From NCBI GenBank assembly GCA_964383935.1, contig CAYLIE010000001.1:11073-75072 (forward strand): a stretch of DNA of 64,000 nt, written 5' to 3'. Position numbers and translations under genes: made by a program. A model generated the notes under the pieces. It was not told where the DNA came from and did not search any database. It worked only from the letters and a program-made list of their open reading frames with translations. The stretch comes from an uncultured Anaerolineales bacterium (GTDB lineage: Bacteria > Chloroflexota > Anaerolineae > UBA7937). This document shows positions 49,804 to 64,000 of the stretch, piece by piece. Each line of letters starts with the position of its first letter. Position 1 is the stretch's first letter.

Positions 49804-49957
49804 AGCCAGCGTCGTTACCTCTGGCTAGGATAGATGTCAAATCACCCTGGTCTTCAATCTCGTGGCAGACGGCTACGCCAGGGCAAAAGAGCTGAACCTT
49901 CTCCCGCTGCCCGATCTGCTTGGGTTCCCGCCGGAATAATACGCTCAACAAAAATGA

Positions 49958-49974
49958 GCGGCCTCTTCGGCCGC
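49958..49974 (-). terminator. hairpin with U-tract on the minus strand downstream of the recombinase gene
   Basis: GCGGCC-tcttc-GGCCGC. On the minus strand it is followed by TCATTTTTGTTG. Confidence 0.4.
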
Positions 49975-50065
49975 CCATCTCACGTTGCCACCCACTCTAG
50001 AAGCTTCGGGGCGTGGCACTTATGCCCCCGACTGGAGATGAGGGCGTAGATAACCGCAATGTCGT

Positions 50066-51628
50066 CTAGTCGCATTTTATCTCGAATTTCTCCGCATTTT
50101 CTTTCAATATCCCGATTTCTCGGAAAAGCGGCATAAAAGCGAGCTTGGGTCTGAGGGCGACTAGCCTCTTTTGGACCGGATCGCAATAGACCGCCTCAAA
50201 GAGAGCAGAGAGAATCTCGCTCCTCTCTTTTTTGGTCGCACTTTGCCAGGCCATCCTCATTGTCTTCAATTGATCCGCCGTGATGTCAATCTTGGCTCTC
50301 GGGGGCGGATTCAAGTTAGCTAGGGCCGCTTCGACTTCCGCCTTGCCTCGCCGGAATTGCTCTTCGTCTATCAGAACTTCCAAATAGAGGCTCTTAAGCC
50401 TCTTCAGTTTCTCCTCTAGCCTCGCTCGTTCTTGCTCTACGTTCGTTGTCTGCTCCCTTGCATTGACCAATTCCTCTATGCGAGTTTGCCAGTCAGGGGG
50501 CAGTTCAAGTCTAGTGATAATCTGCCCGATTTGCTCCTCAAGTCCTGATTCGTGAACCCGCCATCGGGGAGCGGTACAAGGGATTTGCTTGAAGTATGAC
50601 ATACAACGGTAGAAACTGACCCCGCTGCGGCTAGTCTCGCCCGTCATAGCCTTACCGCAGCCCTCGCAGATAAGCATCCCCCGGAAGAGATAGGTGCGAA
50701 ACTTAGGAGTGAAAGTTCGTGCCCTCCTCCGGTTGCGAATGCGAATCTCCTGGCACCTGTCCCACGACTCTTGAGAGACAATGGCCTGTTGCTTGCCTGG
50801 GAACCTCTGGCCCTTGTGGGTTACGTAGCCGAGATAGATTGGGCTCGTGATGGCTTTCTTTACGGTATCTCCTATCCAGAGTCTTCTACCCCAGCGAGTA
50901 TTCATCTGATAGCCCAAACGAGTCAATTCACGCGCCACACTGTTGTAGGAATACTGCCCTGTGGCGTAGAGTTCAAAAAGCTTTATCACCCCTTCACTGT
51001 CCACAGGATGCACAATCGGAATCCGCCCATCTCCTTGATCTTCGTGGCCCAAGTTGGGGCAAAGATGGTCTCCGCAGTTCGAGCACAGGCCAAGGCAATA
51101 TCCGGTTGCTAGATTGCCGAGCCACAACCCTTCCCTGGCTCGTTGGCTGAGCCCCTTCTTGATCTCCTGGCCCAAGTTCTCCGAATACCATTGGGCTAGG
51201 GCTGCAAGAATGTGCATTTGCAGTCGGCCCTCGGGCCGGGTGTAGTCGAAACGCTCTTGGATCGACACAAAGCCGATACCGTGGTCCGCCAACTGCCCCA
51301 GGTAGGTGATCGTATCTCGGAGGCTGCGGCTGAAACGATCCAACTTGTGGATTACCAAGACATCAAAAAGGCCAGCCTCTGCGTCCTTCATCATCTGCTC
51401 GAACTGTGGACGCCGAGCTGACCTTCCTGAGAAGCCAGGGTCAAGGTATTCGGAGACTACTTGCCAGCCTTCGGACTCGCAATACTCCCGGCAGCGCCCT
51501 ATTTGGGCGTCAAGTGAATAGCCCTCGGTCTGCTCTTCAGTTGATACACGCGCGTAAAGAACAGCCCTCACGATTGCACCCCAGGCTATTCTACCCGGAA
51601 GGTTGCACCTTGTCAACCCCTTGGTCAA
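50066..51628 (-). CDS. large serine recombinase (resolvase/invertase N-domain + recombinase + zinc-ribbon)
   Basis: VLYARVSTEEQ (catalytic Ser), DRFSRS, LGYQMNTRWGRRLW recombinase domain and a CEGCGK zinc ribbon. TTG start at 51628 or GTG at 51571. Confidence 0.85.
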   Translation of the reverse strand: MTKGLTRCNLPGRIAWGAIVRAVLYARVSTEEQTEGYSLDAQIGRCREYCESEGWQVVSEYLDPGFSGRSARRPQFEQMMKDAEAGLFDVLVIHKLDRFSRSLRDTITYLGQLADHGIGFVSIQERFDYTRPEGRLQMHILAALAQWYSENLGQEIKKGLSQRAREGLWLGNLATGYCLGLCSNCGDHLCPNLGHEDQGDGRIPIVHPVDSEGVIKLFELYATGQYSYNSVARELTRLGYQMNTRWGRRLWIGDTVKKAITSPIYLGYVTHKGQRFPGKQQAIVSQESWDRCQEIRIRNRRRARTFTPKFRTYLFRGMLICEGCGKAMTGETSRSGVSFYRCMSYFKQIPCTAPRWRVHESGLEEQIGQIITRLELPPDWQTRIEELVNAREQTTNVEQERARLEEKLKRLKSLYLEVLIDEEQFRRGKAEVEAALANLNPPPRAKIDITADQLKTMRMAWQSATKKERSEILSALFEAVYCDPVQKRLVALRPKLAFMPLFREIGILKENAEKFEIKCD

Positions 51629-52698
51629 GCACCCTTCGAAGGATTGTCGCTATCAACCTGCAAAGTTGCTCAACTTCCGCCGACATGATCCCGCCTCAAA
51701 GCCAAGCCGTCACCAGCGACGCCACACCAGGGAACCCGAAGTTCCCTGTACCTCCAACGGGGGTACCTCGATTCCATCGCCTTCTTCTACTCTGCCGTTT
51801 TCTCCCTTTAGGCGGAAGCCCGGCCTCGTCTCTCACATCTCACCTCAGCCGTGACTAGGCTACTTGAACCATCCGTATGCAGCGCACACTTCCGCTTCCG
51901 AATCATCTCGCTATGTCAGAACGCATCAATGCCACTCACTGGCACCAAGTCAGCAGTCTCTTCCTCAGGCCACGGTTGTCCTTCCTGTCGGCCTTCTTGC
52001 GGAAAATGAGGTCCCGGGCCGCATCTTTTCCGCTCAATAGACCTCGGCACCCTCCAGGCAGGTGCAACGCCTCATTGTCTCAACAAGCCTCCTAATCCAC
52101 GCGGCAAACTACAAGAGGGCCATACGGCTGATTGGAGGTTTTCTCGCACTCAGGACGAGGATCACCCTTCTCTCTTCTTAGAGCTCTCCGAATGTCAAGT
52201 CTCTTCCTGTTGTGCCTGATCCTACAGCTCATCCTGCATCTGGTTCGAACCGAGAAATTTACGTCGTAAAACTGGGACATCCGCCCGTACGTCAACTTTT
52301 GGATGAGCAGCCGACTGAGAAGGTACTGCCCCGGGACCGCCTCGAGCGCGGGCCGATGCTACGTCAGCGCTATGGGCTGGTCGGCCGCGCGCTCCCGTCA
52401 ACCTCGCCGACCCCCCGGCTCTTGGTCTTCTATGTTCATCTTCTTCCACAGATTGACCGATGAGTAACGCTTTCAAGGGCGACACCCTTTCCCCTGCGTC
52501 TCTTCCGATGTCACGAGCGACCTGGTGCGATACTTCTCGCACCAGGGTGGCCATCGTAGTTCCTCTCCGGAAACGCCCGTTCGCTGTCAAACAAAAAACC
52601 TCGCCATTTCGGCGAGGCAACGGATCAGCGCATCCTCTAGGGCCAGCCTTGCTGGGGAGCCAAAGCGGGCCCGCCTCCGGGGGATTTTCGTACGACCG

Positions 52699-53150
52699 TC
52701 AACGTTTCTTCTCTGGAACTGCGCCTTTGTTGACGATGTCGGCATGATGAGTTGGCGCTCCAATGATTTTGTGGTCCACCTTGGTCATAATGATAGATTT
52801 CTTGCCAAGGACACGCTCTCGCATCGGGCCTACATGAAGATCTCGGTCACCTGAAAGTGATCGGCCATCTCCGCGAGGTCCATCCGTTGAGCGAAGCACG
52901 CCCTGGAACAGGTCTCGGGACATGGCCACTTCGGCCAGCTGGAACACCAGCCGCCGGGCGTGGCGCACCAGGCGACCCCCAACCTTGATCAATTTCACCT
53001 GCACGCTGCGGAGCGACCAGTCCCTTACGGCCCGAGGAAGCCCCACCCGCCGGAGGAAGTTGCCCAGGTTGTACCCCAGGATGAACAGGGCCAGCCGCGC
53101 TTGGTTGGCCAGATATCGGTGGCACGACAGCCCAGTCCACTTGAGGGCCT
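52699..53150 (-). mobile_element. DDE transposase C-terminal remnant (IS4/IS1380-like), N-terminally truncated
   Basis: Continuous minus-strand frame ALKWTGLSCHRYLANQARLALFILGYNLGNFLRRVGLPRAVRDWSLRSVQVKLIKVGGRLVRHARRLVFQLAEVAMSRDLF, the conserved C-terminal helix region of DDE_Tnp_1-type transposases. Stop codon immediately upstream, no catalytic domain. Confidence 0.6.
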
Positions 53151-53572
53151 ACTTTGCTTTCACTGACGTACACAAACACCTTTGTCCGACGCAGTTGGGC
53201 CTCTCTTGAGGAGCGATGCCTCGGGAAAGTGTTCTCTCTATTGAGTTATGGGTAGACCTTTCGGTCGCGTATTCAGCCTATAAGCAGTTTGCTCCTGGCT
53301 GTTCGGCCCTTGACAGTTACTCAGGGGAGCTGAGCTCATTCAGCCTTCTCCGGCTTACCTTGAGCTTCTGTCTCGGATCGTCGCCTCCTTGGTAAACTAG
53401 TCGATAGTGATCGATCCTTAGGATTCCATCGGGAGCTGAGCTCTACCGACCATTTATCTGGCGGACCGATGAGAACCCTCAGAAGGGAAACAATCTGTTG
53501 GGCCATCCCTCCTGTTATGCGGCTTTTCCGGGGAGCCGCACAGAAACCCATTCACATAGACTAACAATAGTA

Positions 53573-53588
53573 TAGCACAGGTGTGCTA
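53573..53588. repeat. 16-bp perfect palindrome TAGCACAGGTGTGCTA
   Basis: TAGCACA-gg-TGTGCTA in the non-coding stretch between the transposase remnant and the tandem repeats. Confidence 0.4.
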
Positions 53589-53689
53589 ATCTGTCAAGGG
53601 GTTCAGTGAAAAAGACAGCCCGATTGATACCCGTAGGCAAGTCCGATCGGGGCTAGCGAGCTCTTGCGCATCGCGGTGAAGCGAGCACA

Positions 53690-53850
53690 GAGGGAGACAC
53701 GAACAAGAGATTTACGGCGTAAATTTCTTTGGTCCTGCTGCCTACCGGCCAGAGAGAGAGTGACGAGTTTTACGCCGTAAATCTCTCGGGGGCTCCTATT
53801 CGCCGTTGAGGGAGACACTGTGATAGGTTTTACGCCGTGAATCTTACATG
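53690..53850. repeat. three tandem roughly 58-60-bp imperfect direct repeats, each carrying a 13-15-bp palindrome TTTACG(G/C)CGTAAA
   Basis: Unit 1 agggagacacgaacaagagATTTACGGCGTAAATttc (palindrome 53710-24). Unit 2 ...gagTTTTACGCCGTAAATctc (53769-81). Unit 3 agggagacactgtgataggTTTTACGCCGTGAATctt (53829-41). Confidence 0.6.
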
Positions 53851-53940
53851 GCGCTTCGGAGAGTCTGCAAAGAAGGATAGCCGCCTTGCAGAAGATACAT
53901 GCTGGTCGGCTTCGGTAGGGCTGACAGTTATAGTATCTAA

Positions 53941-54144
53941 CTACCACTCACACTCACCACACGCCTCTTTTCCTTCACTGACAACCGTCCCGTCACCTAG
54001 TGATGCTCTCCCTCCTGCATCGACCCAAGTATCCAGCATCAGATTCTGGAACTCCACTCCATTGTAAGGCCTATGATGATCTTCTCCTCGTAAGATGCAT
54101 CGATCATGGATATGGATATCCATCTTCCTTATCAATCTCACCAT
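53941..54144 (-). CDS. small hypothetical protein (67 aa) downstream of small peptide C1
   Basis: Strong RBS AAGGAGGAA-ATG. MVRLIRKMDIHIHDRCILRGEDHH.... The 137-aa track ORF is more likely two genes. Confidence 0.35.
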   Translation of the reverse strand: MVRLIRKMDIHIHDRCILRGEDHHRPYNGVEFQNLMLDTWVDAGGRASLGDGTVVSEGKEACGECEW

Positions 54145-54215
54145 TTCCTCCTTTCTTGTGGTCTTCCCTTGGTAGTCATGTACATTGCTTTGTGAGACTC
54201 CAAGGCACGACTCTC

Positions 54216-54317
54216 CTACGGGCCGTCTTTCTTCCGCTTCTTCCCAAAACTCAGGGCTAGAGCCATAAGGATGATGGCAACCACCATGCCGAGCAACAGG
54301 CCGGGGATAGTTGGAAT
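54216..54317 (-). CDS. small hydrophobic peptide with basic C-terminal tail (paralogue C1; type I toxin-like)
   Basis: Frame gives (I)PTIPGLLLGMVVAIILMALALSFGKKRKKDGP*. Synonymous changes relative to C2 at 58127-58216. AAGGAGGTG RBS 9 nt upstream of an ATT codon. Canonical ATG (MVVAIIL...) 10 codons in. Confidence 0.45.
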   Translation of the reverse strand: MPTIPGLLLGMVVAIILMALALSFGKKRKKDGP

Positions 54318-54970
54318 AGATCACCACCTCCTTACTACTTTTCGACTTTAGCAAAAGCGTGTCCGGCGGTCAAGGGTCAGTCTCAGACGGTTCGTCATTG
54401 TGGGGCCTGAAGGCGGCGGTGCACCGCGCCCACCCCCACGGGCCGGAGCCGAAGTCCCCGCTGGAAACCCGCTCCCGAGACAGAGGGCTACTTAGTAGAT
54501 CAATCTTCTCTTATAGGAGGATGAGCGGCGGCTTTGGCAAGCCTAGCAGAGGTCGAAAACAGCTTGCCGACAGCCGACTCGGAGCGGGCGGACTTTCGGC
54601 TCTGATGAGAGGAGGCCTCTCGCAGGGGGCGAGAAGGCGTCCATATCCCCCACCGCCGTCAACTTTTCGATGTCAAAGAGAGCGGATTTCGAAGGATATA
54701 TCCCAAGAGGGATTTATCCCCCCCGGTTTTCGGGGCTCTCCGGGCTTCTAGGAGGCCGACCGTGCTCAGGAAAGCACCCCGAGCTTGCTTAGGGTTCACT
54801 TGCCCCTGCGCTTCGCTCACGGGGTGCTGAAAACAACCCTCCGGCCTTCGGCGGGCAACTCCCCCTTCCCAGGCGGAGATGACGGGCTGTTCTCTCCTTC
54901 GCGCGCTTCTACCATTTGACTCCAATTCTAACTATGCTACAATACATGCAAAGCTATGGAGGGAAGGCGA

Positions 54971-56770
54971 ATGCACATCACCCACTTCAGGGCTAAGCAC
55001 TTTCGCTGCCTCTATGATACGGACTGGATAGCAATCCACGATTTGACCGTTCTGATCGGTGAGAACGATGGAGGCAAGACGGCAACGATTGATGCCCTTG
55101 AGATTCTGCTCACCATTAAGCCCCCCGACACAGAAGATTTTTCTTTCGTGCCAGGGAGCCAGGAGCAGCACGAACAGGAAATGGTTTTGGAGGCAAAATT
55201 CACCCTTGAGTCGAACGACGTTTCTGCGTTGCAGGAGTTCTGCAGGTACAGTAGCGAGCAGCTAATCATTCGTCGGGATTTCTCCCCGGATTCTGCTGGG
55301 CCATGGACATATAGAACGATGGTTCACGCTGATGAAAGGCTGTCTGCAGATCTGGCCGCCTATACCGTAGCTACACTCCGTGAGATAGCGGAGGAACACG
55401 GGATAGACGTCCCCTTGAGTCCAAAGGCCGACATCGTCGATGCTATCGAGACATGGCTCGCCACTCAGCCGTTGTTTGAGGGATACCGAGAGTTGCCGCG
55501 TGCCGCTCGCGACCTGCTTCCCCAGGTTCAAGTGTTCAGGTCAGCACAGGCACTTGACCCGCAGAGAGAGGTAGACGCTGTTCTCCGAACTGTCTTCGTT
55601 GCCGAGATAGATGGTGAAACATATCGGGGTAAACTGGGTGACATATCCGCTCAAATTGAAGCTAGCCTCAACGAGCGTGTGTCCAGGTTAACACCCGTCG
55701 TTCAAAAATATCGTCCTGAGATCACGGAAGTACGCGTGGATCCTCGTTTCGACTATTCGCGCGGGCTAGCCACGTCGCGCCTCCAACTCATCGGACAGGA
55801 TGGCCACCCCATAAGCCTTGACAAACGCGGAGAAGGCATCAAGCGCCAAGTGACACTGGCTGTCTACGAGTGGAATTCGGAGCTTCTAGCCGCTCGTCCG
55901 GAGGAAGGTGCCCGCCCTCTCCTCCTGGCTTTCGACGAACCCGATAGTCATCTCGACTATTACTCTCAGCGCAAGATATTTGAGATTATACGGAGTCTCG
56001 TCAAACCGGGGATTCAGATAGTCGTCTGCACCCACTCGCTTAATCTCATAAACCGCGTCCCCCTAACCAACATAAATCATTACTGCTTGGACGATCACTA
56101 TTGCACGCGGGTGACCGCTTTGCAGAGCGATGATCCCGCCACGCTTGAGTATTTCGTCGACGACATAGGCAAGAATATGGGCTTGGAAAACAGCCTCATG
56201 TTTCACGAGCGTTGTTTTCTCGTTGTGGAGGGCCCAAGTGAAATGAACGCTTTACCCCCGCTCTTTCGCGTTTGGCACGAGGACGGGCTCAGTCTAACAT
56301 CTGCTGGTATCCGGTTGCTGAACGGTCAGAACAACGTTGGAGCGAGGAATTTCGCCAAGTTCCTTAACGACAATAATCGCAATGTCGTCTTCATGCTCGA
56401 TTCGGATTCTCGAACAGATCCCACAGGCCGCGTCTTCTCTGAGGAAAGCCTTCGTCGCGCAGGTTTTGATATCGATCGCCAGGTCTTCTTCGTCGGAGAT
56501 AGGGAGTTCGAGGATGCGTTCAGTGACACGCTTTGGGCCAGAGTCGGCAATACTAGATGGCCTCCAGAAGACGGGCGACCTTGGCAACCGGATGATTTTT
56601 CAGGCCGCAGGTCCCAAGACAAGAAATTCTCCGATGGCCTTTGCGCCGCATTCCGAGCGTCCAAGCCCAAAATAGCTTATGAACTTGCGAAGCGTGTAGC
56701 CGACCCCACTGAGATCCCCGCTCAAATCCAACGGTGTTTTAAGCACGCACTGGCGTTGGCGAATTCCTAG
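54971..56770 (+). CDS. OLD-family ATP-dependent endonuclease (N-terminal AAA_15/21 ATPase + C-terminal TOPRIM)
   Basis: RBS GGAGGGAAGG. MHITHFRAKHFRC...IHDLTVLIGENDGGKTATIDALEIL (Walker A), LLLAFDEPDSHLD (Walker B), TOPRIM CFLVVEGPSEMNALPPLF...VVFMLDSD. Confidence 0.75.
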   Translation: MHITHFRAKHFRCLYDTDWIAIHDLTVLIGENDGGKTATIDALEILLTIKPPDTEDFSFVPGSQEQHEQEMVLEAKFTLESNDVSALQEFCRYSSEQLIIRRDFSPDSAGPWTYRTMVHADERLSADLAAYTVATLREIAEEHGIDVPLSPKADIVDAIETWLATQPLFEGYRELPRAARDLLPQVQVFRSAQALDPQREVDAVLRTVFVAEIDGETYRGKLGDISAQIEASLNERVSRLTPVVQKYRPEITEVRVDPRFDYSRGLATSRLQLIGQDGHPISLDKRGEGIKRQVTLAVYEWNSELLAARPEEGARPLLLAFDEPDSHLDYYSQRKIFEIIRSLVKPGIQIVVCTHSLNLINRVPLTNINHYCLDDHYCTRVTALQSDDPATLEYFVDDIGKNMGLENSLMFHERCFLVVEGPSEMNALPPLFRVWHEDGLSLTSAGIRLLNGQNNVGARNFAKFLNDNNRNVVFMLDSDSRTDPTGRVFSEESLRRAGFDIDRQVFFVGDREFEDAFSDTLWARVGNTRWPPEDGRPWQPDDFSGRRSQDKKFSDGLCAAFRASKPKIAYELAKRVADPTEIPAQIQRCFKHALALANS

Positions 56771-56778: not shown

Positions 56779-57039
56779 ATGAACAGAAACGAAATCGTCG
56801 ACACCATAAGACGTGCCGGAAGAGAAAAAACAATTCTCTGGATACGAGCATACGAAGCCGATGGCTCAATCGAACCCAGAGAGGTTGAGCCCTATAGCTT
56901 TCGTCCATCAGGCACCACGGAGTGTTTCTTCTTTTACTGCCTGCTCCACAAGGGAACTCGTAACTTCCTGGTTGACAAGATCATTGAAGTGCGACTCACC
57001 GACAAGCGCTTTGAACTGCGCTGGCCCATAGAACTATAG
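56779..57039 (+). CDS. stand-alone WYL-domain protein coupled to the OLD nuclease gene
   Basis: ATG 8 nt after the OLD stop, with RBS overlapping the stop. EVEPYSFRPSGTTECFFFYCLLHKGTRNFLVDKIIEV matches the WYL ligand-sensing fold. Confidence 0.6.
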   Translation: MNRNEIVDTIRRAGREKTILWIRAYEADGSIEPREVEPYSFRPSGTTECFFFYCLLHKGTRNFLVDKIIEVRLTDKRFELRWPIEL

Positions 57040-57286: not shown

Positions 57287-57345
57287 AAACCAATATATTT
57301 ATATCACAGCATGACATTTTTGTCAAGTTTTTCAAGTAGGATCAC

Positions 57346-57888
57346 TTATCTTCGTTGAACCGTTTGTTGTATATCCTCAAGGAATCGGTATTCTTGGCAG
57401 GCAAGCTTTAGCTCCCAAGAGAGGGTTTTGCGAGAAGAGAAAACCACCAGCGTTTTCCCCAAATCCCTCAGGCGCTTTCCAAGATCGGCAAAGTCACTGT
57501 CCCCCGAGAACAAAATGACGCAATCCAAATCCGCCCTCTCTAGAAGAATATCAGCGGTCATCTCCACATCGAAATTGGCCTTGTATACAAAGGTGTATCC
57601 ATACAACTTCCAATAGGGATGGTCCTTGTCAATGGCGATCTTTTTGAGAGGTTTAGTGATGGTGGTAAAGCCGATCTTATCCAAATACCGCAAATATTTG
57701 GGCATTTTGCGATCGCCCTTCTTTAGGCCGGTGTAGTAGCGAAACTCCAGCACGTCAAACTCTTGTTGAACAAGGGCTTTGACCTTCTCCCAGTCGATAC
57801 TCCAGCCCAGCTTGCGCTGGGTGTAGAACATGTTGGCGCCGTCAATATATACTTTTGCTCTGGGTTTTTCCCGAGAAAGATGGGCCAT
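57346..57888 (-). CDS. NYN-domain (LabA-like, PIN-fold) putative RNase
   Basis: KVYIDGANMFY...DCVILFSGDSDFADL NYN motifs. Leaderless arrangement, TGCTATAAT -10 ending 6 nt before ATG. Confidence 0.7.
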   Translation of the reverse strand: MAHLSREKPRAKVYIDGANMFYTQRKLGWSIDWEKVKALVQQEFDVLEFRYYTGLKKGDRKMPKYLRYLDKIGFTTITKPLKKIAIDKDHPYWKLYGYTFVYKANFDVEMTADILLERADLDCVILFSGDSDFADLGKRLRDLGKTLVVFSSRKTLSWELKLACQEYRFLEDIQQTVQRR

Positions 57889-58057: not shown

Positions 58058-58082
58058 GGCATGCTTGTATATACAGCATGCC
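58058..58082. repeat. 25-bp near-perfect palindrome between small peptide C2 and the NYN promoter
   Basis: GGCATGCT-TGTATATACA-GCATGCC (one-base bulge). Confidence 0.45.
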
Positions 58083-58126
58083 ACAGACGGTCAAGCGCGC
58101 TCACGAAAGCCACCGGCCCCGCCCAT

Positions 58127-58216
58127 CTACTTTCGTTTCCTGCCGATAGACAGTGCCAGCCAGATCAGTATTGTGGAAAGCAGCATGCCCAGCAACAGTC
58201 CAGGGATAGTTGGAAT
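58127..58216 (-). CDS. small hydrophobic peptide with basic tail (paralogue C2)
   Basis: (I)PTIPGLLLGMLLSTILIWLALSIGRKRK*. GGAAGGAAG RBS 9 nt upstream of ATT. First 10 codons identical to C1 at protein level with synonymous nucleotide changes. Confidence 0.45.
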   Translation of the reverse strand: MPTIPGLLLGMLLSTILIWLALSIGRKRK

Positions 58217-58383
58217 GAATCATCACTTCCTTCCTCTCTCATCGTAGCATAGAGAAAACGGGCCGATCAATATGAAGAGGTGTTCGCAACTAGGGCAGGA
58301 AAGTCAGGGATGGGACCACCGGAGGAGACCACCTCGGCCCACTGCGAATTGATCATTGACAGGGGTATCCTCAATTTGCTACT

Positions 58384-59166
58384 GTGAGAATGGAGGGGAT
58401 GCCCGGAGCTATCCATTGGGCTTCTGGAGGGCGCACCAGCCATGCAATGTGCCACAACCAGCCGCCCGGGGAAGCCGAATCTGTTCTCATGAAGGAAAAG
58501 CAACCCGTTCACCACACATCTGACGAACACGCTGTGTCATCGGAGCAGAGGAAAGAATATCCCCTCGGCAGAAGCATCGTTAGACGGCTCAAGAAAACAC
58601 TCAACGAAGAGTGGGACTCTTGGCTGGTGGAGGAAGACGAGGATACCTTCAAGACCCTCTACCTGACAGAGCGACGGGTGTGCATCCCCGAACATCTGCT
58701 TAGCGGCGAGATCATGGAGGACATCATGAGTCTTTTCTACTACCCCCTCTCCACCGTCAGGGAGGAGCTCAAGGAGCGCACAGAGGCAAAGGAGTTCATC
58801 TCTATCTTTGTCCAACCCTCATACACGGACACCTCTTTTGCCGTGATGGTGGCCGGAGAAAAAGCTCTGTTGACCGTCTCTGACAAGGCGTGGAACTTCT
58901 ACTGGGATAGTGAAGAGGAGATGGTGAAGGAGCTGGAGAGTTGGTATCAGATTGCTGAAGCCAGGCTCAAGGGCGGACCCAGGCTCTTCGGCGGTGATGC
59001 CTGGGCACTTGAGACCCTGCTACGGCAGGTGAGGGAAGAGGACATTCCCAGGCTGCAAGAGGAAAGCCGCTGGCGGGCTGACGAACTCCGCAGAGCCCTT
59101 GATCTTCTCTCCCGCTTGCTTGAAGAGCCACGGGATAGAGAAGAATCGCTCCAGGACCTCAGCTAG
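58384..59166 (+). CDS. hypothetical protein (acidic, helical)
   Basis: 260-aa ORF in the island. Start uncertain (internal ATGs at 58443 and 58492). No family recognised. Confidence 0.4.
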   Translation: MRMEGMPGAIHWASGGRTSHAMCHNQPPGEAESVLMKEKQPVHHTSDEHAVSSEQRKEYPLGRSIVRRLKKTLNEEWDSWLVEEDEDTFKTLYLTERRVCIPEHLLSGEIMEDIMSLFYYPLSTVREELKERTEAKEFISIFVQPSYTDTSFAVMVAGEKALLTVSDKAWNFYWDSEEEMVKELESWYQIAEARLKGGPRLFGGDAWALETLLRQVREEDIPRLQEESRWRADELRRALDLLSRLLEEPRDREESLQDLS

Positions 59167-59261
59167 GGGAGAGCAGGGAACAGAGGAGACCCCAGGCTCC
59201 CAGGAACTTGTTCCTTTGCAGGGCGAGAAAGGCCGCGAGCTACTTATACTATTATATATAT

Positions 59262-59822
59262 ATGAAGGAACGTGAACCCGATTTCGAAAACGAGAAGATA
59301 CGGGCCTGGCTGATAGGGCCTTCCTTAGAGGGTCCCGCGGAAAAGGAGCAAGATCTTGAAGGTCTCGAGAAAGACCCAACTGTCATAACCATTGATGAGG
59401 AGACCGAAGAGATATTCGAGAGTCGCGCCTATCACTTCAGGCCTGGCCCGGAGACCTTCTCTTTTCTCCTTGGCTCGCTAGCCAAGACGATGGGTGAGAA
59501 TCTTGCTGAGATCCCTCCGGAGGAGCTTGTGGATCATGTGATGGACATGATCGAAGGCACTGGTATCAAGTTCCTGGCCAAGCGGCGCAAGGAGGATGGT
59601 CGAATCACCTTTATTTTGGTGGGGATCAGTTGCCATTCACGGTCGCTCCTCGATCGCCAGGAATTGGTCAAGGAGGCCGGTTATCGCAAGGCGGTCCAGG
59701 AGTTTGAAGAGCTCCCCCTTTCAAGGGCGATCCTTTCGCCACCGGCAGTGGTCACCCTTGAGGAGTGGCGCCGCTATGCTGAGGAAGGTCCCCTCTCAAG
59801 AAGCGAACGCGAGGGAGAATAG
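59262..59822 (+). CDS. hypothetical protein
   Basis: MKEREPDFENEKIRAWLIG.... 186 aa from ATG 59262; track ORF starts at 59208. No family recognised. Confidence 0.4.
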   Translation: MKEREPDFENEKIRAWLIGPSLEGPAEKEQDLEGLEKDPTVITIDEETEEIFESRAYHFRPGPETFSFLLGSLAKTMGENLAEIPPEELVDHVMDMIEGTGIKFLAKRRKEDGRITFILVGISCHSRSLLDRQELVKEAGYRKAVQEFEELPLSRAILSPPAVVTLEEWRRYAEEGPLSRSEREGE

Positions 59823-59874
59823 AAAGAGCCAGACTTGAGCTGGGAAGGAAGAAGCCTCCAGGCCACGTTGATGC

Positions 59875-59982
59875 CTACCTGGGCTTTCTCTTCCGTCCCT
59901 TCTCAACCATGACCGGAAGAGCCAGTAACCATATGAAGACCGTGATTCCTACAAGAAGCCATTCTAGAGGCGTCAAGGCCAT
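59875..59982 (-). CDS. small hydrophobic peptide with basic tail (paralogue C3, canonical ATG)
   Basis: AAGGAGGTG RBS, 9 nt, then ATG. MALTPLEWLLVGITVFIWLLALPVMVEKGRKRKPR*. Same RBS spacing and architecture as C1 and C2. Confidence 0.55.
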   Translation of the reverse strand: MALTPLEWLLVGITVFIWLLALPVMVEKGRKRKPR

Positions 59983-60501
59983 ATGTTCAATCACCTCCTT
60001 CGGAGAAAGAGACAACTCATCAAGTATCCAGATATAAACAGGGTCAGTCCTATGAGTGTCACTCGAAAGGAAAACCCTCGCTCGGAAAGAATCTGTCCGA
60101 AGACGAGGGCTCCAATCGCTATATTTGCCAGATCGACTAACTTGTCCGCAGAAAGCCTTCGATGATCCTCGTTGAAGCGGATAACCATGCACTCTGATGT
60201 TAGCACATTGAGCGAGATGCTGTCAATACCACAATACGGAGTATCCTAGGCGAAGCATAGACAGCCGACCTGCACATAGCGATCTGGTCTACATTTCCCC
60301 CCTTTACCGCCTTTTCCTTATTTTGTTTTCCCTCGCGCCCGCGCGAAAGAGGGGATTGAGAGAGCTGGGGGAGGGTAGACGATATGCCTATGTGCAATCC
60401 GATTCCACTGACATCCGCTAATGAGAAATGCTCAAGGTGTCCCTGAGTAATAGTCTGATCAGGATGGAGCTTATGCGCCTTTGTATGACTCTTGGTAATA
60501 G

Positions 60502-60530
60502 TTGACTGTTACGGTGCCATAGGTTATACT
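60502..60530 (+). promoter_or_regulatory. sigma70-type promoter for the PAPS-reductase-like/PLD/NTPase operon
   Basis: TTGACT (60502-07), 17 nt, TATACT (60525-30), 65 nt before the ATG. Confidence 0.5.
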
Positions 60531-60595
60531 GGTTGCAAACCTAAATCCTTCTCTGCAGGTTCGCAATCTCGCACGCTACAGAAACGGGCAGGTGA

Positions 60596-61321
60596 ATGCA
60601 GGTACCAGAGTGGCTGGGGCATCTGCAAGAGGCTGAAACCGCGTACGTGCTGTTTTCGGGCGGCAAAGACAGTTCGGCGGCCCTGGTGTACACCAAGGAG
60701 CTGAGTGACGAGTTTTGCGAATCTCCTCGATTAGTAGCGGTCCATGTGGATACGACGGCGGGACTTCCTGCTGTTGAAGAGTTCTCAAAGCAGTTCTGTA
60801 GTCATGTTGGCGTGCCTCTTACGGTTTTGAGGCCTGAAGAGGACTATTTTAGTCTAGTGAAGCGTTGGGGCGTGCCGCGCCCTAGGGCGAGGTGGTGTTG
60901 CTTCCATCTGAAAATAGAGCCGATCAAGTTGTTCCTTGATGGGCAGAAGAATTACGTGGTCTTGGACGGGATGCGAAGGCAGGAATCACGGAAGCGCTCC
61001 CAGTATCCGCCCACCTACGATCATCCCCATTTTGGGCTGGTAATTCACCCAATTATAGATTGGACAAAGGACAGAGTTGAAGATTTCATTGCCTCAAGGG
61101 ACTTGCCTATCAATCCAGCGTACGAAATGGGATTCAGTTCCTGGGAGTGCTGGTGTGGTGTGTTCAAGCGAAAGTGTGAATTTGAGAAACTGCGGGATGT
61201 GGATAGGGACTTCTTCATGAAACTGGTGGAACTGGAGGATTCCCTTACAAGTGGGTATGCTTACGCCTATTTTGATGGCAAACCCTTCTACCTAAAGGGT
61301 CTACTACAGGAGAAAGATTGA
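60596..61321 (+). CDS. PP-loop ATP pyrophosphatase of the PAPS-reductase/DndC-SspD-like family with Cys cluster
   Basis: PP-loop 'VLFSGGKDSSAAL'. Cys-rich segments RARWCCFH and WECWCGVFKRKCEF suggest an Fe-S site. 241 aa. Confidence 0.65.
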   Translation: MQVPEWLGHLQEAETAYVLFSGGKDSSAALVYTKELSDEFCESPRLVAVHVDTTAGLPAVEEFSKQFCSHVGVPLTVLRPEEDYFSLVKRWGVPRPRARWCCFHLKIEPIKLFLDGQKNYVVLDGMRRQESRKRSQYPPTYDHPHFGLVIHPIIDWTKDRVEDFIASRDLPINPAYEMGFSSWECWCGVFKRKCEFEKLRDVDRDFFMKLVELEDSLTSGYAYAYFDGKPFYLKGLLQEKD

Positions 61322-61322
61322 T

Positions 61323-61859
61323 TTGCAAGTGGAAGTTGTGGCAAACCAGCATCATCGTGGAGTGATAGAACGCTTATTGGAAGGAAGGCCGTTCCGCGTG
61401 CGGCTGTACGCACTACACGTTCATGATGTCCAACTGATCAGCTCTTCGCTAGGATTGCGCTTAATCAGGCTATTGGGGTCAGATTGTACAGTAACGGTAG
61501 CTTTTGGAGACAGGCTTTGGGACACGGAGACGGGCAGCCCCAGGAACGAGTTATGTAGGCAAGTCCTCGACTTCTTGAAGGAGATCGAGGATTATGGGGC
61601 AAACGTGTGGCACGTACCAGATCCCTTGCTACACGCAAAAGTCCTATATGTTGAGGAAGAAATGCCGGGTGCCGGGCGAACGAGTCGTGCGTTGGTGAGT
61701 AGCGCGAACTTCACGGAGACGGGTATTGGCGGTAGCAACTTTGAACTGGGGATCGGTTTCGAAGACTTAGAGGCGTGCCCAATCCTGGCACAGAGCATAA
61801 AGAAGTTCACCGATGGAGTACTCGGTGCAGCCAGACCTATACCTTGGGAAGGAGTTTAG
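61323..61859 (+). CDS. phospholipase D (HKD)-like nuclease-family protein
   Basis: Single HKD-like motif HAKVLYVEEE...GRTSRALVSSANFTETG. Start 2 nt after the previous stop. 178 aa. Confidence 0.55.
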   Translation: MQVEVVANQHHRGVIERLLEGRPFRVRLYALHVHDVQLISSSLGLRLIRLLGSDCTVTVAFGDRLWDTETGSPRNELCRQVLDFLKEIEDYGANVWHVPDPLLHAKVLYVEEEMPGAGRTSRALVSSANFTETGIGGSNFELGIGFEDLEACPILAQSIKKFTDGVLGAARPIPWEGV

Positions 61860-62978
61860 ATGATGTGGTTCGAGAGGTACAACTTCAAAGAAGATCCCTA
61901 CGTGGTGCGCGATCCATTCGAGACTTCACTAGAGTTCATCCAATGGGATAGGGAGGACCTCGTACACAAGAAGAATCTTGACTTTTTCATAAGGGATGTC
62001 GTAGGTGGCTATCGCGTTGGATTGAAGGTGTATGGCGCCAGTGGCAGTGGGAAAACCTGGTTGCTGAGATATCTCCAGAAAGAATTGGTGCGGCAGCTTG
62101 GTGACGAGGTAGTTGTTCTCTATGGAAAGATTCCGCGGTTTGATCCCACGTTCTGGGTCTTCTATGACATGGTAGTGAAGGGTTGGCTCGACCATCGAAG
62201 TAGAATCCTAGAGACCATCGCAAGGACAGCCGGTGACGTGGAATCCGCATGGCAGGAGCACATAGGAGACGCTGACTTGGCAAGCTGTCTATGGAGGCTA
62301 AAGTACAAGGCTGACGAAAAGGTAACAATCAGCCTTTGTGAGCATTGGTTAAGGGGCACAAAGATTCCGGTTCGTGACCTGAGCCAAGTCGGTGCAACGG
62401 CTTCACTGGATCGCGACTACTCGAGGTATTCCGTCCTTGTCCAATTATTGGACCTAGCCTTGCAGGCTTTCGGCACATGCGTCCTCATGGTTGATGAGCT
62501 TGAGAATGCTCCTGGGTCACTCGCTCGGGCGCTCGGCGATGCCCTCAGAGACCTCTTGGATAGCTTCTCCGAGCGATTCGCATTGGCATGCAGCTACACA
62601 GCTCAAGCGGCGGACGAGTTGCTCGATAGGGGATACGGAGAGTTCTTGTTCAGGCGCTTGGAGTGGCACGTAAAGCTTGATCCAATCACGCCTGACAACG
62701 CTCCTGGCGTTTTTAGGGTCCATCATGGCACGTACCGAAAGCCTGGACATGAGGGCGATCAATTGGCTCCCTTCACGGAGCAAGCACTACGCAGGTTGTT
62801 GAGGGAAATGGAGCCAGAAAAGTGGTATCCGGGGTTCATATTCCCTAATTGTGGAGTCTTAGGGCGTCTAGCGAGTGAAGCAAGTGCTGATACGATAGAC
62901 GAGACTTTTGTGGAGACGACGGCGTTTCAGAAGCGGGAAGTCTTTCCATACCTGGGGCCAGAGTCCAGACTTATATAG
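61860..62978 (+). CDS. P-loop NTPase (AAA/ORC-like) of unknown family
   Basis: ATG immediately after the PLD stop with an AAGGAG RBS. Walker A 'VYGASGSGKTWLLRYL' and Walker B 'CVLMVDELEN'. 372 aa. Confidence 0.55.
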   Translation: MMWFERYNFKEDPYVVRDPFETSLEFIQWDREDLVHKKNLDFFIRDVVGGYRVGLKVYGASGSGKTWLLRYLQKELVRQLGDEVVVLYGKIPRFDPTFWVFYDMVVKGWLDHRSRILETIARTAGDVESAWQEHIGDADLASCLWRLKYKADEKVTISLCEHWLRGTKIPVRDLSQVGATASLDRDYSRYSVLVQLLDLALQAFGTCVLMVDELENAPGSLARALGDALRDLLDSFSERFALACSYTAQAADELLDRGYGEFLFRRLEWHVKLDPITPDNAPGVFRVHHGTYRKPGHEGDQLAPFTEQALRRLLREMEPEKWYPGFIFPNCGVLGRLASEASADTIDETFVETTAFQKREVFPYLGPESRLI

Positions 62979-63967
62979 GAGAGCTTGCCGTCCCGACCAG
63001 CTATGGCTGACTGCACTATGCCTTCATTCGCCAATCGCCTAATTAGCCGCCGCAAAGTCTTCTCTTCGAGTACGCAGTACCGTTCTATCAGTAGGCTCAT
63101 ACAGACATATACACTGATGGAACGTACGTCAGACAAGCGCAGCTGTGGTCTCTCAAAGAGGGCGTAGGCCTTACGGAACAGCTCGAGAAAACGCGCGCGG
63201 CTAGGCTTGTGCTCATATCGAAAGTCAGGGAGACATCCAGGCGCGTCACCTACGTAGGCAGATGCTGCCCAATAGATCTTCTCCTGCAGTTCAGCGCCCT
63301 CCTTGGAGAAGAGACCGAGCAGCTTCTGTGCCATGCTTGTTAACTGAAGCCGTTGAGGATTCACGAGGCCCAGTTGCTGCAACCAAAATCGGAAACAATC
63401 AAAGTTGTTCCGCACTTTCCTTGGTGGGGAGTCTGGCTGCCTAGAGAAGTGCAAGGACAAATACGCCTTGTCCTCCCAGGTGCTACAGGTGCTATTGGAC
63501 AAGACCCTTTGGCCGTAAGACGTGATGACTCGTTCTATGGGTCCGCCTGCATTCTGAGAGATGGCTCCTAGAGCAGAACTGAACTGCAACGGGAGGTACA
63601 GGGCAAGAGCGCGAAAATAGAATACCTTTTCTGCAAGTTCAAGGGTTTTGTTTGACTTTGCAGGCACCAGAGCGCAAAGCGCTTTTCCCTCGCTGGAAAG
63701 CACATAGCCGCCATTCTCGCGCGTCACTAGTCCGAGTGATTCCATGGCGCGCAAATGCCTCTTGATCACCTTGACATTCGTCAGACCCAGCTCTTTCTGA
63801 ATCAAGGGCACAAGCATATCAGTTTCCATAAGTCCTTCGGGGCGCATGATGTGGCAAATTCCCGTGAAGCGGTGCAATTGCCCCTCTGACGTGGTCAGGT
63901 CTGCCAGGAATCCAGTGCGCGAGACTTCCATGCGATTGGTATTCGCTTCCTTATCTACTATGTCCAT
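62927..63967 (-). CDS. hypothetical protein with winged-helix (MarR/HxlR-like) DNA-binding region
   Basis: LIQKELGLTNVKVIKRHLRAMESLGLVTRENGGYVLSSEGKAL. 346 aa. Convergent with the NTPase gene, ends overlapping by about 50 nt. Confidence 0.4.
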   Translation of the reverse strand: MDIVDKEANTNRMEVSRTGFLADLTTSEGQLHRFTGICHIMRPEGLMETDMLVPLIQKELGLTNVKVIKRHLRAMESLGLVTRENGGYVLSSEGKALCALVPAKSNKTLELAEKVFYFRALALYLPLQFSSALGAISQNAGGPIERVITSYGQRVLSNSTCSTWEDKAYLSLHFSRQPDSPPRKVRNNFDCFRFWLQQLGLVNPQRLQLTSMAQKLLGLFSKEGAELQEKIYWAASAYVGDAPGCLPDFRYEHKPSRARFLELFRKAYALFERPQLRLSDVRSISVYVCMSLLIERYCVLEEKTLRRLIRRLANEGIVQSAIAGRDGKLSYISLDSGPRYGKTSRF

Positions 63968-64000
63968 ACCAAACTAGGCTATAGACATATTGTACGCACA

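What the first reader, a model, noticed from the sequence alone, without database searches (positions are those of the whole stretch)
49804..64000. Low-GC accessory island bounded by a large serine recombinase and a transposase remnant
From the serine recombinase gene (50066-51628) rightwards the GC content drops (about 50% vs about 60%, judged by eye) and the gene content switches from housekeeping to defence/mobile functions. About 1.6 kb of non-coding, degenerate sequence (51629-53300) with a truncated DDE transposase follows the recombinase. The island continues beyond the window, so its right border and att sites are not visible.
Basis: partly seen in the sequence, partly recalled or inferred. 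Interest (0 to 1): 0.55.

Follow-up and report, generated by a model that had tools for sequence, protein, structure and literature searches.

The report
Defence island inserted in tRNA-Leu gene
At least 25 kb of foreign, mostly anti-phage genes sits inside a leucine tRNA gene of an uncultured Anaerolineae bacterium, apparently put there by a large serine recombinase, an enzyme type that only rarely uses tRNA genes as landing sites.

Summary
The island is real, but its description needs correcting. GC falls from 57.1% to 53.2%, not from 60% to 50%, and tetranucleotide usage drifts away from the core. The left border is not 49804. It lies at about 50034-50036, inside a tRNA-Leu(GAG) gene. A close relative (MAG W31_47) has that tRNA intact right after the same S58 peptidase gene; the window keeps only its last 15 nt.

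The intact large serine recombinase (LSR) gene ends 30 nt from this junction. Two relatives (85-89% identical LSRs, different host flank) show the same arrangement: stop codon, GCGGTTATC, a 13-nt arm, CC, tRNA-Leu 3' end. More distant relatives (60% and 50%) abut intact tRNA-Arg and tRNA-Leu genes in the opposite orientation. This points to an LSR clade that targets the T-arm and acceptor end of tRNA genes.

The IS1380 fragment (52894-53157) is an internal scar, not a border. It truncates the element's ImmA-like regulatory gene.

Cargo is a solo OLD nuclease with a WYL protein, a NYN protein, and a PAPS-reductase/PLD/ATPase cluster. Beyond the window lie a DrmMI-like methylase and a BrxHII-like helicase.

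The right end was not found. Island length, and whether the tRNA is restored, remain inferred.

The parts
48811..49803 (+). Peptidase S58 (DmpA-like) gene, the last core gene to the left of the island.
   Evidence: Pfam PF03576, E = 5e-45. Orthologues at 90-91% identity in MAGs UBA7937 and W31_47. The exact protein is on Logan contig SRR14802574_3503.
50021..50036 (-). 3' end of a tRNA-Leu(GAG) gene, about tRNA nt 60-73 plus one base. It is all that remains of the gene at this border, and forms the B' half-site of attL.
   Evidence: The 15 nt at 50022-50036 are identical to the 3' end of the intact tRNA-Leu(GAG) found at the syntenic position in L004. ARAGORN finds no tRNA in the window.
50034..50035 (-). 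Inferred crossover dinucleotide: CC on the minus strand, equal to tRNA positions 61-62.
   Evidence: This is the centre of the best inverted repeat downstream of the LSR stop: 9/13 in the window and 10/13 in L089 and L090. L084 and L091 have their best centre at the same offset of 33 nt. Inferred, not shown.
50036..50057 (-). LSR-proximal, element-derived arm (P'): TACGCCCTCATCT plus the conserved outer motif GCGGTTATC (50049-50057).
   Evidence: The arm is unique in the window. It is conserved in L089, L090 and the L003 scar. It is homologous, with the same spacing, to the LSR-proximal arm of L087.
50066..51571 (-). Large serine recombinase, 501 aa from the GTG at 51571. The ORF is open up to the TTG at 51628.
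   Evidence: Pfam Resolvase E = 9e-43, Recombinase 2e-13, Zn_ribbon_recom 3e-9. The catalytic YARVSTEEQ motif is conserved. The ATG used by the closest relatives is ATA here, and the GTG aligns with the Met start of P0003, P0008 and P0012. dN/dS is 0.11-0.16 against relatives.
51572..52904 (-). Element backbone upstream of the LSR, mostly non-coding. It holds a remnant of a small basic protein (51936-52067), one palindromic operator-like site (52256-52272) and the C-terminal pseudogene fragment of an ImmA/IrrE (M78) peptidase (about 52785-52904).
   Evidence: blastn gives 90% identity to L090 over 50022-51789, 77% over 52035-52904, and 83% to L089 up to 52015. The M78 C-terminus ...AQRMDLAEMADHFQVTE.FM matches the L090 M78 protein and carries an in-frame stop. 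The small-protein remnant matches the L089 77-aa protein.
52894..53157 (-). IS1380-family transposase remnant: the C-terminal ~88 codons only, with neither IS end present.
   Evidence: Pfam DDE_Tnp_1_4 E = 2e-20, profile positions 339-427 of 435. NCBIfam transpos_IS1380 E = 3e-17, positions 345-417 of 419. Homology to L090 stops exactly here.
53709..53843 (.). Three copies, 58-60 nt apart, of the palindrome GATTTACGSCGTAAA. A fourth copy lies at 52256-52272.
   Evidence: 8 strand-matches against 0.05 expected by chance, all inside the island.
54971..56770 (+). OLD-family nuclease (ABC-type ATPase + TOPRIM), with no partner helicase.
   Evidence: Pfam AAA_15, AAA_21 and OLD-like_TOPRIM. PADLOC AriA, GajA and Old at E = 1e-20 to 1e-22. 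No UvrD-like ORF is adjacent. The start at 54971 is confirmed by an exact-product look-up.
56779..57039 (+). Small WYL-domain protein directly downstream of the OLD gene.
   Evidence: Pfam WYL E = 2e-6, 28.2 bits against a cut-off of 21.8.
57346..57888 (-). NYN/LabA-like predicted RNase.
   Evidence: Pfam NYN E = 3e-24. PADLOC NYN E = 2e-19. This is the lowest-GC kilobase of the window.
58384..59822 (+). Two ORFs with no family match (58384-59166 and 59208-59822).
   Evidence: No hit in Pfam, PADLOC or NCBIfam.
60596..62978 (+). Three-gene cluster: PAPS-reductase-like protein (60596-61321), PLD-like protein (61323-61859) and AAA_16/AAA_22 ATPase (61860-62978).
   Evidence: Pfam PAPS_reduct E = 2e-25. 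PADLOC BrxP 8e-19 and SspD 1e-18. PLDc_2 5e-4 and DrmC 3e-7. AAA_16 2e-8.
62927..63967 (-). 346-aa protein with only a weak winged-helix signal. It is the first gene of a leftward operon that continues beyond the window with a DrmMI / type IIG-like methylase and a BrxHII / HmaA / DrmD-like SNF2 helicase.
   Evidence: PADLOC Csa3 wHTH E = 2e-5 and no Pfam hit. Logan contigs L001 and L002 give the continuation.

Best explanation
The region from about 50035 to beyond 64000 is a mosaic genomic (defence) island in an uncultured Anaerolineae chromosome. Counting 10-11 kb seen on overlapping public contigs, it is at least 25 kb long.

Its integration module sits at the left edge. It is an intact large serine recombinase gene whose stop codon lies 30 nt from the junction with the chromosome. 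The junction falls inside a tRNA-Leu(GAG) gene, at the T-stem/T-loop boundary.

Inferred mechanism:
- LSR dimers bound an attP on the circular element and an attB formed by the T-arm and acceptor 3' strand of the tRNA gene.
- They cut both at a central CC (tRNA nt 61-62), rotated and religated.
- This left attL, which is P' arm - CC - tRNA 3' end, at 50021-50057. The 5' three-quarters of the tRNA went to the unseen right end.
- The LSR-proximal arm is itself an inverted, imperfect copy of the tRNA 3' end. In more distant relatives, integrated in the opposite polarity, the LSR-proximal arm supplies an exact tRNA 3' end. I therefore infer that the distal arm restores the tRNA at attR.

After integration the element decayed and accreted. 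An IS1380 insertion and deletions removed the ImmR/ImmA-type regulatory module.

Cargo to the right:
- a solo OLD nuclease with a WYL protein;
- a NYN RNase;
- small membrane peptides;
- a PAPS-reductase/PLD/ATPase cluster followed by a methylase and SNF2 helicase.

This cargo has heterogeneous composition and was probably assembled stepwise.
For: Shown:
1. The site is empty in a close relative. L004 (S58 protein 90% identical) has an intact tRNA-Leu(GAG) where the window has only the last 15 nt, and homology ends there.
2. The junction recurs. L089 and L090 (LSRs 85% and 89% identical) have a different host flank but carry stop - 8 nt - GCGGTTATC - TACGCCCTCGACT - CC - AGTCGGGGGCAT.
3. The best inverted repeat is centred on that CC at offset 33 from the stop: 10/13 in L089 and L090, 9/13 in the window. 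L084 and L091 have their best centre at the same offset.
4. Relatives also touch tRNA genes. In L087/L085 (60% LSR) the stop is 19 nt from an intact tRNA-Arg(ACG). In L095/L096 (50% LSR) the stop is 1 nt from an intact tRNA-Leu(GAG) identical to that of L004. Both are antiparallel to the LSR.
5. The LSR ORF is intact, its catalytic motif is conserved and dN/dS is 0.11-0.16.
6. Backbone homology to L090 ends exactly at the IS1380 remnant, with an ImmA pseudogene fragment next to it.
7. Composition and cargo differ from the core.

Inferred: the CC crossover, tRNA restoration at attR, and stepwise accretion of the cargo.
Against: - The right end (attR) was never seen. Neither the tRNA 5' part nor a second att-like site lies in the window or in the 10 kb beyond it. 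So the size, the unity of the island and the fate of the tRNA are all unproven.
- Recombination was not demonstrated.
- The window and the L003 scar share two substitutions next to the proposed crossover (CATCT against CGACT). The LSR's usual ATG is ATA, and the regulatory module is destroyed. This copy may no longer be mobile.
- The insertion seems to be shared by descent with UBA7937, so the window and L003 count as one event.
- L097/L098 (59% LSR, prophage) gives only a weak tRNA-like match, p about 0.05.
- The target of L084 and L091 could not be identified as a tRNA.
Confidence: 0.7

Rival explanations
1. The LSR element is only a roughly 3-kb remnant (50036-52904). Everything to the right of the IS1380 scar arrived separately, either as a second element in tandem at the same tRNA hotspot or by IS-mediated or other insertions. 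On this view the 'island' is a composite, not one LSR-borne unit.
For: - Homology to related LSR elements stops at 52904, at an IS remnant.
- GC and tetranucleotide profile change stepwise along the island.
- Related elements carry quite different cargo: an AEP primase in L089, ImmR/ImmA in L090 and phage genes in L098.
- Public contigs from two samples both break at 60096, and others break at 53348.
- An S24/LexA-like fragment at the far end of L001 resembles another regulatory module.
Against: - No second att-like site, tRNA fragment or second integrase is seen between 52904 and 10 kb past the window.
- Contig breaks in short-read unitig assemblies have many other causes.
- This reading refines the main explanation rather than excluding it. 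The left border and the LSR-tRNA junction stand either way.
Confidence: 0.35
2. The island was integrated by a tyrosine integrase encoded at the unseen right end, in the classical manner of tRNA-targeting islands. On this view the 15-nt tRNA fragment at 50022-50036 is the displaced direct repeat, and the LSR is cargo or belongs to a nested element.
For: - tRNA genes are the classical targets of tyrosine integrases. 44.5% of such elements use them, against 4.9% of elements with serine integrases (PMC7192596).
- A displaced 3' fragment starting at the T-loop is exactly what tyrosine integrases leave.
- The right end is unseen.
Against: - The LSR stop codon keeps a fixed 30-nt distance to the junction in three loci with two different host flanks.
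- The sequence between stop and junction forms an inverted repeat with the tRNA end around a 2-nt centre, as expected of LSR sites.
- LSRs only 50-60% identical also abut tRNA genes. Chance adjacency would be about 1e-3 per locus.
- No tyrosine recombinase appears in the 24 kb seen.
Confidence: 0.08
3. There is no insertion. This is an ancestral, compositionally odd chromosomal region, and the relatives have lost it.
For: The GC difference is modest (4 points). 51.6-53.3 kb is host-like in GC.
Against: - An intact tRNA gene at the empty site in L004, against a truncated one here, cannot be produced by loss of the region.
- The same junction occurs next to homologous LSRs in a different host flank.
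Confidence: 0.02

Closest known systems
Large serine recombinase (serine integrase) integration modules of phages and integrative elements, such as phiC31, Bxb1, A118, CcrAB and XisF
   Same: The three-domain architecture is the same (Resolvase, Recombinase, zinc ribbon). The gene sits at the very edge of the element. The att site next to the gene has imperfect inverted half-sites around a 2-nt non-palindromic centre. NCBIfam's best, sub-threshold, hits are CcrB and XisF.
   Different: From my own knowledge, those enzymes target protein-coding genes or intergenic sites. Here the target is the T-arm and acceptor end of a tRNA gene. Identity to the characterised enzymes is low: none of the NCBIfam equivalog cut-offs is reached.
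Serine-integrase elements computationally mapped to tRNA genes: 14 of 297 S-Int elements in TIGER (Mageeney et al. 2020, PMC7192596), and eight Mycobacterium AICE serine recombinases predicted to integrate in a tRNA-Leu gene (Ghinet et al. 2011, PMC3218068)
   Same: An LSR-type integrase is associated with a tRNA gene target, including tRNA-Leu. The evidence is computational only. PMC7192596 states that such use 'has not been reported previously' and that 'experimental proof will be required'.
   Different: The phylum differs (Chloroflexota, class Anaerolineae). I could not compare sequences or crossover positions with those cases. Here several LSR lineages (50-89% identical) use tRNA-Leu(GAG) and tRNA-Arg(ACG) in both polarities.
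Classical tRNA-targeting genomic islands with tyrosine integrases (Islander-type)
   Same: The island is inserted in the 3' part of a tRNA gene and a displaced 3' fragment marks one end. The integrase gene is at one end, the distribution among relatives is sporadic, and the cargo is accessory or defence genes.
   Different: No tyrosine recombinase is seen. The recombinase next to the junction is a serine enzyme. It sits beside the displaced fragment rather than the regenerated tRNA, and the junction forms a palindrome rather than one copy of a direct repeat.
DISARM, BREX and Hma defence systems (cargo comparison)
   Same: Individual components match: DrmMI-like methylase (5e-122), BrxHII / HmaA / DrmD-like SNF2 helicase (7e-185, 1e-139, 9e-120), DrmC-like PLD (3e-7) and BrxP/SspD-like PAPS reductase (about 1e-18).
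   Different: No PglZ, BrxC, DrmA or DrmB (DUF1998) was found among the genes seen. The cluster therefore does not meet the definition of BREX or DISARM. Membership of Hma was not established.

Membership tests
Large serine recombinase (serine integrase) | N-terminal resolvase-type catalytic domain with the nucleophilic serine | tested here: met
   PF00239 E = 9e-43 over the full profile. The YARVSTEEQ motif and surrounding residues are invariant among 8 homologues.
Large serine recombinase (serine integrase) | C-terminal Recombinase domain and zinc-ribbon domain | tested here: met
   PF07508 E = 2e-13 and PF13408 E = 3e-9, with conserved Cys residues in the alignment.
Large serine recombinase (serine integrase) | att sites with imperfect inverted half-sites around a 2-bp crossover | tested here: inconclusive
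   attL shows 9-10/13 symmetry around CC at a conserved offset. However, attR, attP and the cleavage position were not observed.
Large serine recombinase (serine integrase) | Catalyses attP x attB integration | not testable with these tools
   Needs a recombination assay.
Integrative genomic island | Present in some close relatives and absent in others, at the same locus | tested here: met
   L004 is empty with an intact tRNA. L003 carries a scar. The window is occupied.
Integrative genomic island | Composition differs from the core genome | tested here: met
   GC is 53.2% against 57.1% (p = 3e-5). Tetranucleotide correlation falls to 0.38-0.77. The difference is modest and uneven.
Integrative genomic island | Both ends defined by att sites | tested here: not met
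   Only the left end was found. No second site lies within 64000 + 10 kb. The attempt to reach the right flank failed.
Gabija (GajA/GajB) | OLD-type ATPase-TOPRIM protein together with an adjacent UvrD-like helicase (GajB) | tested here: not met
   GajA profiles hit at about 1e-20 to 1e-22. No helicase ORF lies next to 54971-56770; the neighbours are a WYL protein and a NYN protein. It is best called a solo OLD-family nuclease.
BREX | PglZ phosphatase and BrxC/PglY ATPase together with a PglX methylase | tested here: not met
   Only BrxP-like and BrxHII-like hits were found. No PglZ or BrxC hit appears in any protein of the window or L001.
DISARM | DrmA helicase and DrmB (DUF1998) core, plus DrmC and a methylase | tested here: not met
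   DrmMI-, DrmD- and DrmC-like proteins are present. No DUF1998/DrmB was found, and the only DrmA hit is a cross-hit of the SNF2 protein.
IS1380-family insertion sequence | Complete DDE transposase and terminal inverted repeats | tested here: not met
Only profile positions 345-417 of 419 remain. The flanking sequence is element backbone on one side.

The most novel reading that the evidence does not exclude
The window may belong to a Chloroflexota clade of large serine recombinases specialised on tRNA genes. In this reading attP is an inverted pair of tRNA-3'-end mimics around a CC/GG centre. Flipping the central dinucleotide would then reverse the integration polarity: the LSR ends up next to the displaced fragment (window, L089, L090) or next to the regenerated tRNA (L087, L095). 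Either way one element arm rebuilds the tRNA. This would be the first well-resolved family of tRNA-targeting serine integrases, and it would test the 'symmetry hypothesis' for why integrases favour tRNA genes.
Probability: 0.35. Interest if true: 0.6.

Novelty: new member of a known kind. Interest (0 to 1): 0.42.

Why it matters
Serine integrases are the main tools for inserting large DNA, and their natural targets are almost always protein-coding or intergenic sites. Use of tRNA genes by them has only been inferred computationally, in a few percent of cases, with a published call for experimental proof (PMC7192596).

This locus and its relatives give a compact, testable set:
- a 501-aa enzyme;
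- a roughly 40-bp attL with a clear symmetry centre;
- the matching attB in a universally conserved part of tRNA-Leu(GAG);
- sister lineages on tRNA-Arg and in the opposite polarity.

If the model holds, it speaks to why integrases converge on tRNA T-arms. It would also offer integrases whose landing pads already exist in many genomes.

The cargo adds a solo OLD/WYL pair and an unclassified PAPS-reductase/PLD/ATPase cluster with a methylase and SNF2 helicase to the candidate defence genes of a poorly studied phylum.

Tried and rejected
1. Right end and attR.
- The tRNA-Leu 5' part, T-loop motif, P'-like arm and GCGGTTATC motif were searched in the window and in L001. Nothing was found.
- I looked for the orthologue of the glycosyltransferase that follows the scar in L003 and fetched its 251-kb contig (L094). 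Synteny there is different and there is no tRNA-Leu.
2. Displaced tRNA fragments at the far ends of the L087 and L095 elements were not found within 10 kb. One inverted match in L087 lies inside a radical-SAM Cys motif and is chance.
3. IMG/VR searches.
- The exact P' 18-mer gave two chance hits inside coding sequence.
- The LSR protein and the LSR alignment gave nothing closer than 30% identity.
4. Rfam and ARAGORN on the island found no RNA family and no tRNA.
5. A six-frame Pfam scan of 51600-54960 found only the IS1380 fragment.
6. Treating 52460-52747 as a conserved small gene was rejected. tblastx conservation is equal in several frames, so the region is better read as conserved non-coding DNA.
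7. The L097/L098 tRNA-Arg-like fragment scores only at the 95th percentile of shuffles. It is kept as a hint only.
8. tblastn of the 346-aa and ATPase proteins against plasmids gave no match.
9. The 68-nt spacer element shared with L089 showed no stable fold, z = 0.18.
10. Exact-product look-ups of the 520-aa LSR, the TTG-start S58 and the NYN protein found nothing on record. For the LSR and S58 this is probably a difference in called start codon.

Full report
**1. Observation**

Computed GC is 57.1% for 1-49803 and 53.2% for 49804-64000. The 1-kb windows average 57.0 ± 2.1% against 53.2 ± 2.7% (Mann-Whitney p = 3e-5). The lowest kilobase, 47.2%, is at 57-58 kb. Tetranucleotide correlation with the core is 0.92-0.95 in every 4-kb block up to 48 kb, then 0.87, 0.77, 0.69 and 0.38. 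The compositional break is therefore real, but it is about 4 GC points rather than 10, and it grows towards the right. The stretch 51629-53300 is host-like at 57.5%.

Genes to the left are ordinary chromosomal genes:
- amino-acid permease, subtilase, ABC transporter, aldehyde dehydrogenase;
- formiminotransferase-cyclodeaminase, PcrA/UvrD, adenine deaminase;
- PMT_2 glycosyltransferases, ribosomal protein L9, a radical-SAM protein, DUF3048 and S58 peptidase.

Genes to the right are mobile or defence genes.

**2. Host and the empty site**

The S58 peptidase finds only Chloroflexota, mostly Anaerolineae MAGs. The closest are UBA7937 (L003, 91%) and W31_47 (L004, 90%).

In L004 the S58 gene is followed, after a homologous spacer, by an intact tRNA-Leu(GAG) on the opposite strand. 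The window aligns with L004 up to 50036 and then diverges. It keeps exactly the last 15 nt of that tRNA (50022-50036), and ARAGORN finds no tRNA anywhere in the window.

L003 has the same truncated tRNA and the same first ~22 nt of foreign sequence, but then different DNA and no recombinase. It is a deletion scar. The island's left border is therefore inside a tRNA gene at about 50034-50036, not at 49804.

**3. The recombinase and its site**

ORF 50066-51628 (minus strand) has the Resolvase, Recombinase and zinc-ribbon domains of a large serine recombinase. The ATG used by its closest relatives is ATA here. A GTG at 51571 aligns with the Met start of other relatives and gives 501 aa. Catalytic residues are conserved, and dN/dS against relatives is 0.11-0.16, the same range as among the relatives themselves.

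Relatives were collected from JGI and Logan assemblies:

| Locus | LSR identity | What follows the stop codon |
|---|---|---|
| L090, L089 | 89%, 85% | Same arm and same tRNA-Leu 3' end; host flank differs from the window |
| L087/L085 | 60% | 19 nt, then an intact tRNA-Arg(ACG) on the opposite strand |
| L095/L096 | 50% | 1 nt, then an intact tRNA-Leu(GAG) on the opposite strand |
| L084, L091 | 76%, 77% | Best symmetry centre at the same offset of 33; target not recognisable as a tRNA |
| L097/L098 | 59% | Prophage; tRNA-Arg-like 12-mer plus a hairpin, at chance-borderline significance |

- In L090 and L089 the sequence reads stop codon, 8 nt, GCGGTTATC, TACGCCCTCGACT, CC, AGTCGGGGGCAT. This is the same arm and the same tRNA-Leu 3' end. 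The host flank then differs from the window's, although the two are homologous to each other.
- A scan for the best 13+2+13 inverted repeat puts the centre on that CC, 33 nt from the first base of the stop codon. Symmetry is 10/13 in L089 and L090 and 9/13 in the window. CC corresponds to tRNA positions 61-62.
- In L087, the part of the tRNA 3' of GGTTCGAGT-CC occupies the position of the window's P' arm, with the same spacing and 12/22 identities.
- The tRNA in L095 is identical to that of L004 and has the same 5' flank, while the 3' side is LSR instead of the S58 spacer.

**4. Mechanism**

Shown:
- a truncated tRNA at a site that is intact in a relative;
- an intact LSR gene at a fixed short distance from the junction;
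- recurrence of the junction in another host context;
- tRNA adjacency of three LSR lineages.

Inferred:
- The LSR recombined an attP with the T-arm and acceptor 3' strand of the tRNA gene at the central CC.
- In the window lineage the LSR-proximal arm is an imperfect inverted copy of the tRNA 3' end (AGTCGAGGGCGTA, or AGATGAGGGCGTA in the window, against AGTCGGGGGCAT). It ends up head-to-head with the real 3' end, which produces the palindromic attL.
- In the L087 and L095 lineages the central dinucleotide is inverted relative to the LSR gene. The element sits the other way round, and the LSR-proximal arm rebuilds the tRNA.
- By symmetry, the distal arm of the window-type element should rebuild tRNA-Leu at the unseen right end. 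This is a prediction, not an observation.

**5. Decay and mosaicism**

- Window 50022-51789 is 90% identical to L090. Window 52035-52904 is 77% identical to L090's spacer and to the C-terminus of its M78 (ImmA/IrrE) peptidase gene. L089 matches up to 52015.
- L090's backbone is LexA-type wHTH, HTH_19 repressor, M78 peptidase, a ~900-nt spacer and then the LSR.
- In the window only the last ~38 codons of the M78 gene survive, with an in-frame stop. They abut a 264-bp fragment of an IS1380-family transposase, positions 345-417 of 419.
- The 'degenerate non-coding' DNA is thus partly conserved element backbone and partly a deletion scar. The transposase remnant is internal, not a boundary.
- Further right, composition varies gene by gene. 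Short-read contigs that are 100% identical to the window end at 53348 and 60096, the latter in two samples. Related elements carry unrelated cargo. I therefore regard the cargo as accreted stepwise (rival 1), which does not affect the border.

**6. Cargo**

- A solo OLD-family ATPase-TOPRIM nuclease (54971-56770) followed by a WYL protein.
- A NYN/LabA RNase.
- Two ORFs without family matches.
- A PAPS-reductase-like protein, a PLD-like protein and an AAA ATPase.
- A divergent 346-aa wHTH-like protein.
- Beyond the window, contigs L001 and L002 add a 1333-aa DrmMI / type IIG-like methylase, a 1016-aa BrxHII / HmaA / DrmD-like SNF2 helicase, two unknown proteins and S24-peptidase fragments.

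The defining partners of Gabija (GajB), BREX (PglZ, BrxC) and DISARM (DrmA, DrmB) are absent. I do not file the cargo under those systems.

**7. What is known**

Mageeney et al. 2020 report tRNA/tmRNA gene use by 44.5% of tyrosine-integrase elements but only 14 of 297 serine-integrase elements. They state that such use had not been reported before and needs experimental proof (PMC7192596). Ghinet et al. 2011 predicted that eight Mycobacterium AICE serine recombinases integrate in one tRNA-Leu gene, and called serine-recombinase integration in tRNA genes rare (PMC3218068).

The present locus is a new, well-resolved member of that rare kind in a different phylum. A genomic or defence island as such is ordinary.

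**8. Limits**

The right end, attP and any excised form were not seen, and no activity was tested. The window and L003 probably share one ancestral insertion, and substitutions next to the proposed crossover may have immobilised this copy.

**Verdict:** observation partly confirmed, interpretation partly supported, interest 0.42.

Noticed in passing
window 54216-54317 (-), 58127-58216 (-), 59875-59982 (-): Three paralogous small hydrophobic peptides with Lys/Arg-rich tails: IPTIPGLLLGMVVAIILMALALSFGKKRKKDGP, IPTIPGLLLGMLLSTILIWLALSIGRKRK and MALTPLEWLLVGITVFIWLLALPVMVEKGRKRKPR. Each lies behind a Shine-Dalgarno-like AAGGAGG. The first two have no ATG and may start at ATT. Their differences are synonymous or conservative in this frame only. 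There is a weak LPXTG-anchor-like hit. They may be type I toxin-like or sorting-signal remnants; this is unresolved.
   Followed up: partly
window 52256-52272, 53709-53725, 53767-53783, 53827-53843: The 15-17 nt palindrome GATTTACGSCGTAAA occurs four times and only inside the island, against 0.05 expected by chance. Three copies are spaced 58-60 nt apart. It looks like operator sites for a dimeric repressor of the element.
   Followed up: partly
window 60596-63967 and L001 1-9742 (continuation to the right of the window): Gene cluster of a PAPS-reductase-like protein, PLD, AAA ATPase, a 346-aa wHTH-like protein, a DrmMI / type IIG-like methylase, a BrxHII / HmaA-like SNF2 helicase and two unknown proteins. 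It mixes parts known from DISARM, BREX and Hma without their defining cores, and has no tblastn match in PLSDB plasmids. It may be an undescribed modification-based defence system.
   Followed up: partly
window 51572-52700; L090 1622-2528: A 0.9-1.3 kb gene-poor stretch upstream of the LSR gene is conserved at 77-90% DNA identity between elements, with no frame-specific conservation and no Rfam match. Its role (leader, regulatory region or RNA) is unknown.
   Followed up: partly
L095 11531-11614 with LSR 10001-11530; L004 2558-2642: The same tRNA-Leu(GAG) locus is empty in L004. In a near relative (L095) it is occupied by a different LSR lineage (50% identity) in the opposite orientation, with the LSR stop codon 1 nt from the tRNA 3' end. 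This tRNA is a hotspot for at least two LSR lineages.
   Followed up: yes
L097 1996-3492 and L098 5896-7392: A 59%-identical LSR sits at the end of a prophage with terminase, portal and capsid genes. This shows that the clade also serves phages. A Xer-like tyrosine recombinase gene lies 100 nt downstream.
   Followed up: no
window 53348 and 60096: Public short-read contigs that are 100% identical to the window end at 53348 (one sample) and at 60096 (two samples). The OLD gene sits on a separate 2.7-kb contig. This could reflect strain-variable cassettes between these points or only assembly fragmentation.
   Followed up: partly
window 49817-49884; L089 9232-9299: A 68-nt segment of the S58-tRNA spacer recurs at 84% identity in an intergenic region of L089. 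It lies within a 124-nt stretch that is missing in L003. No stable fold (z = 0.18) and no Rfam match.
   Followed up: partly
window 2707-4329 (+): A HerA-like DUF87 ATPase lies in the otherwise housekeeping left part of the window. It could belong to a separate defence or repair module.
   Followed up: no
L004 75-287 and 2521-2736: Both ends of the 2.8-kb W31_47 contig carry inverted copies of a sequence containing ATGTAACCGAAACGG repeats. This probably explains why that contig ends just past the tRNA.
   Followed up: no
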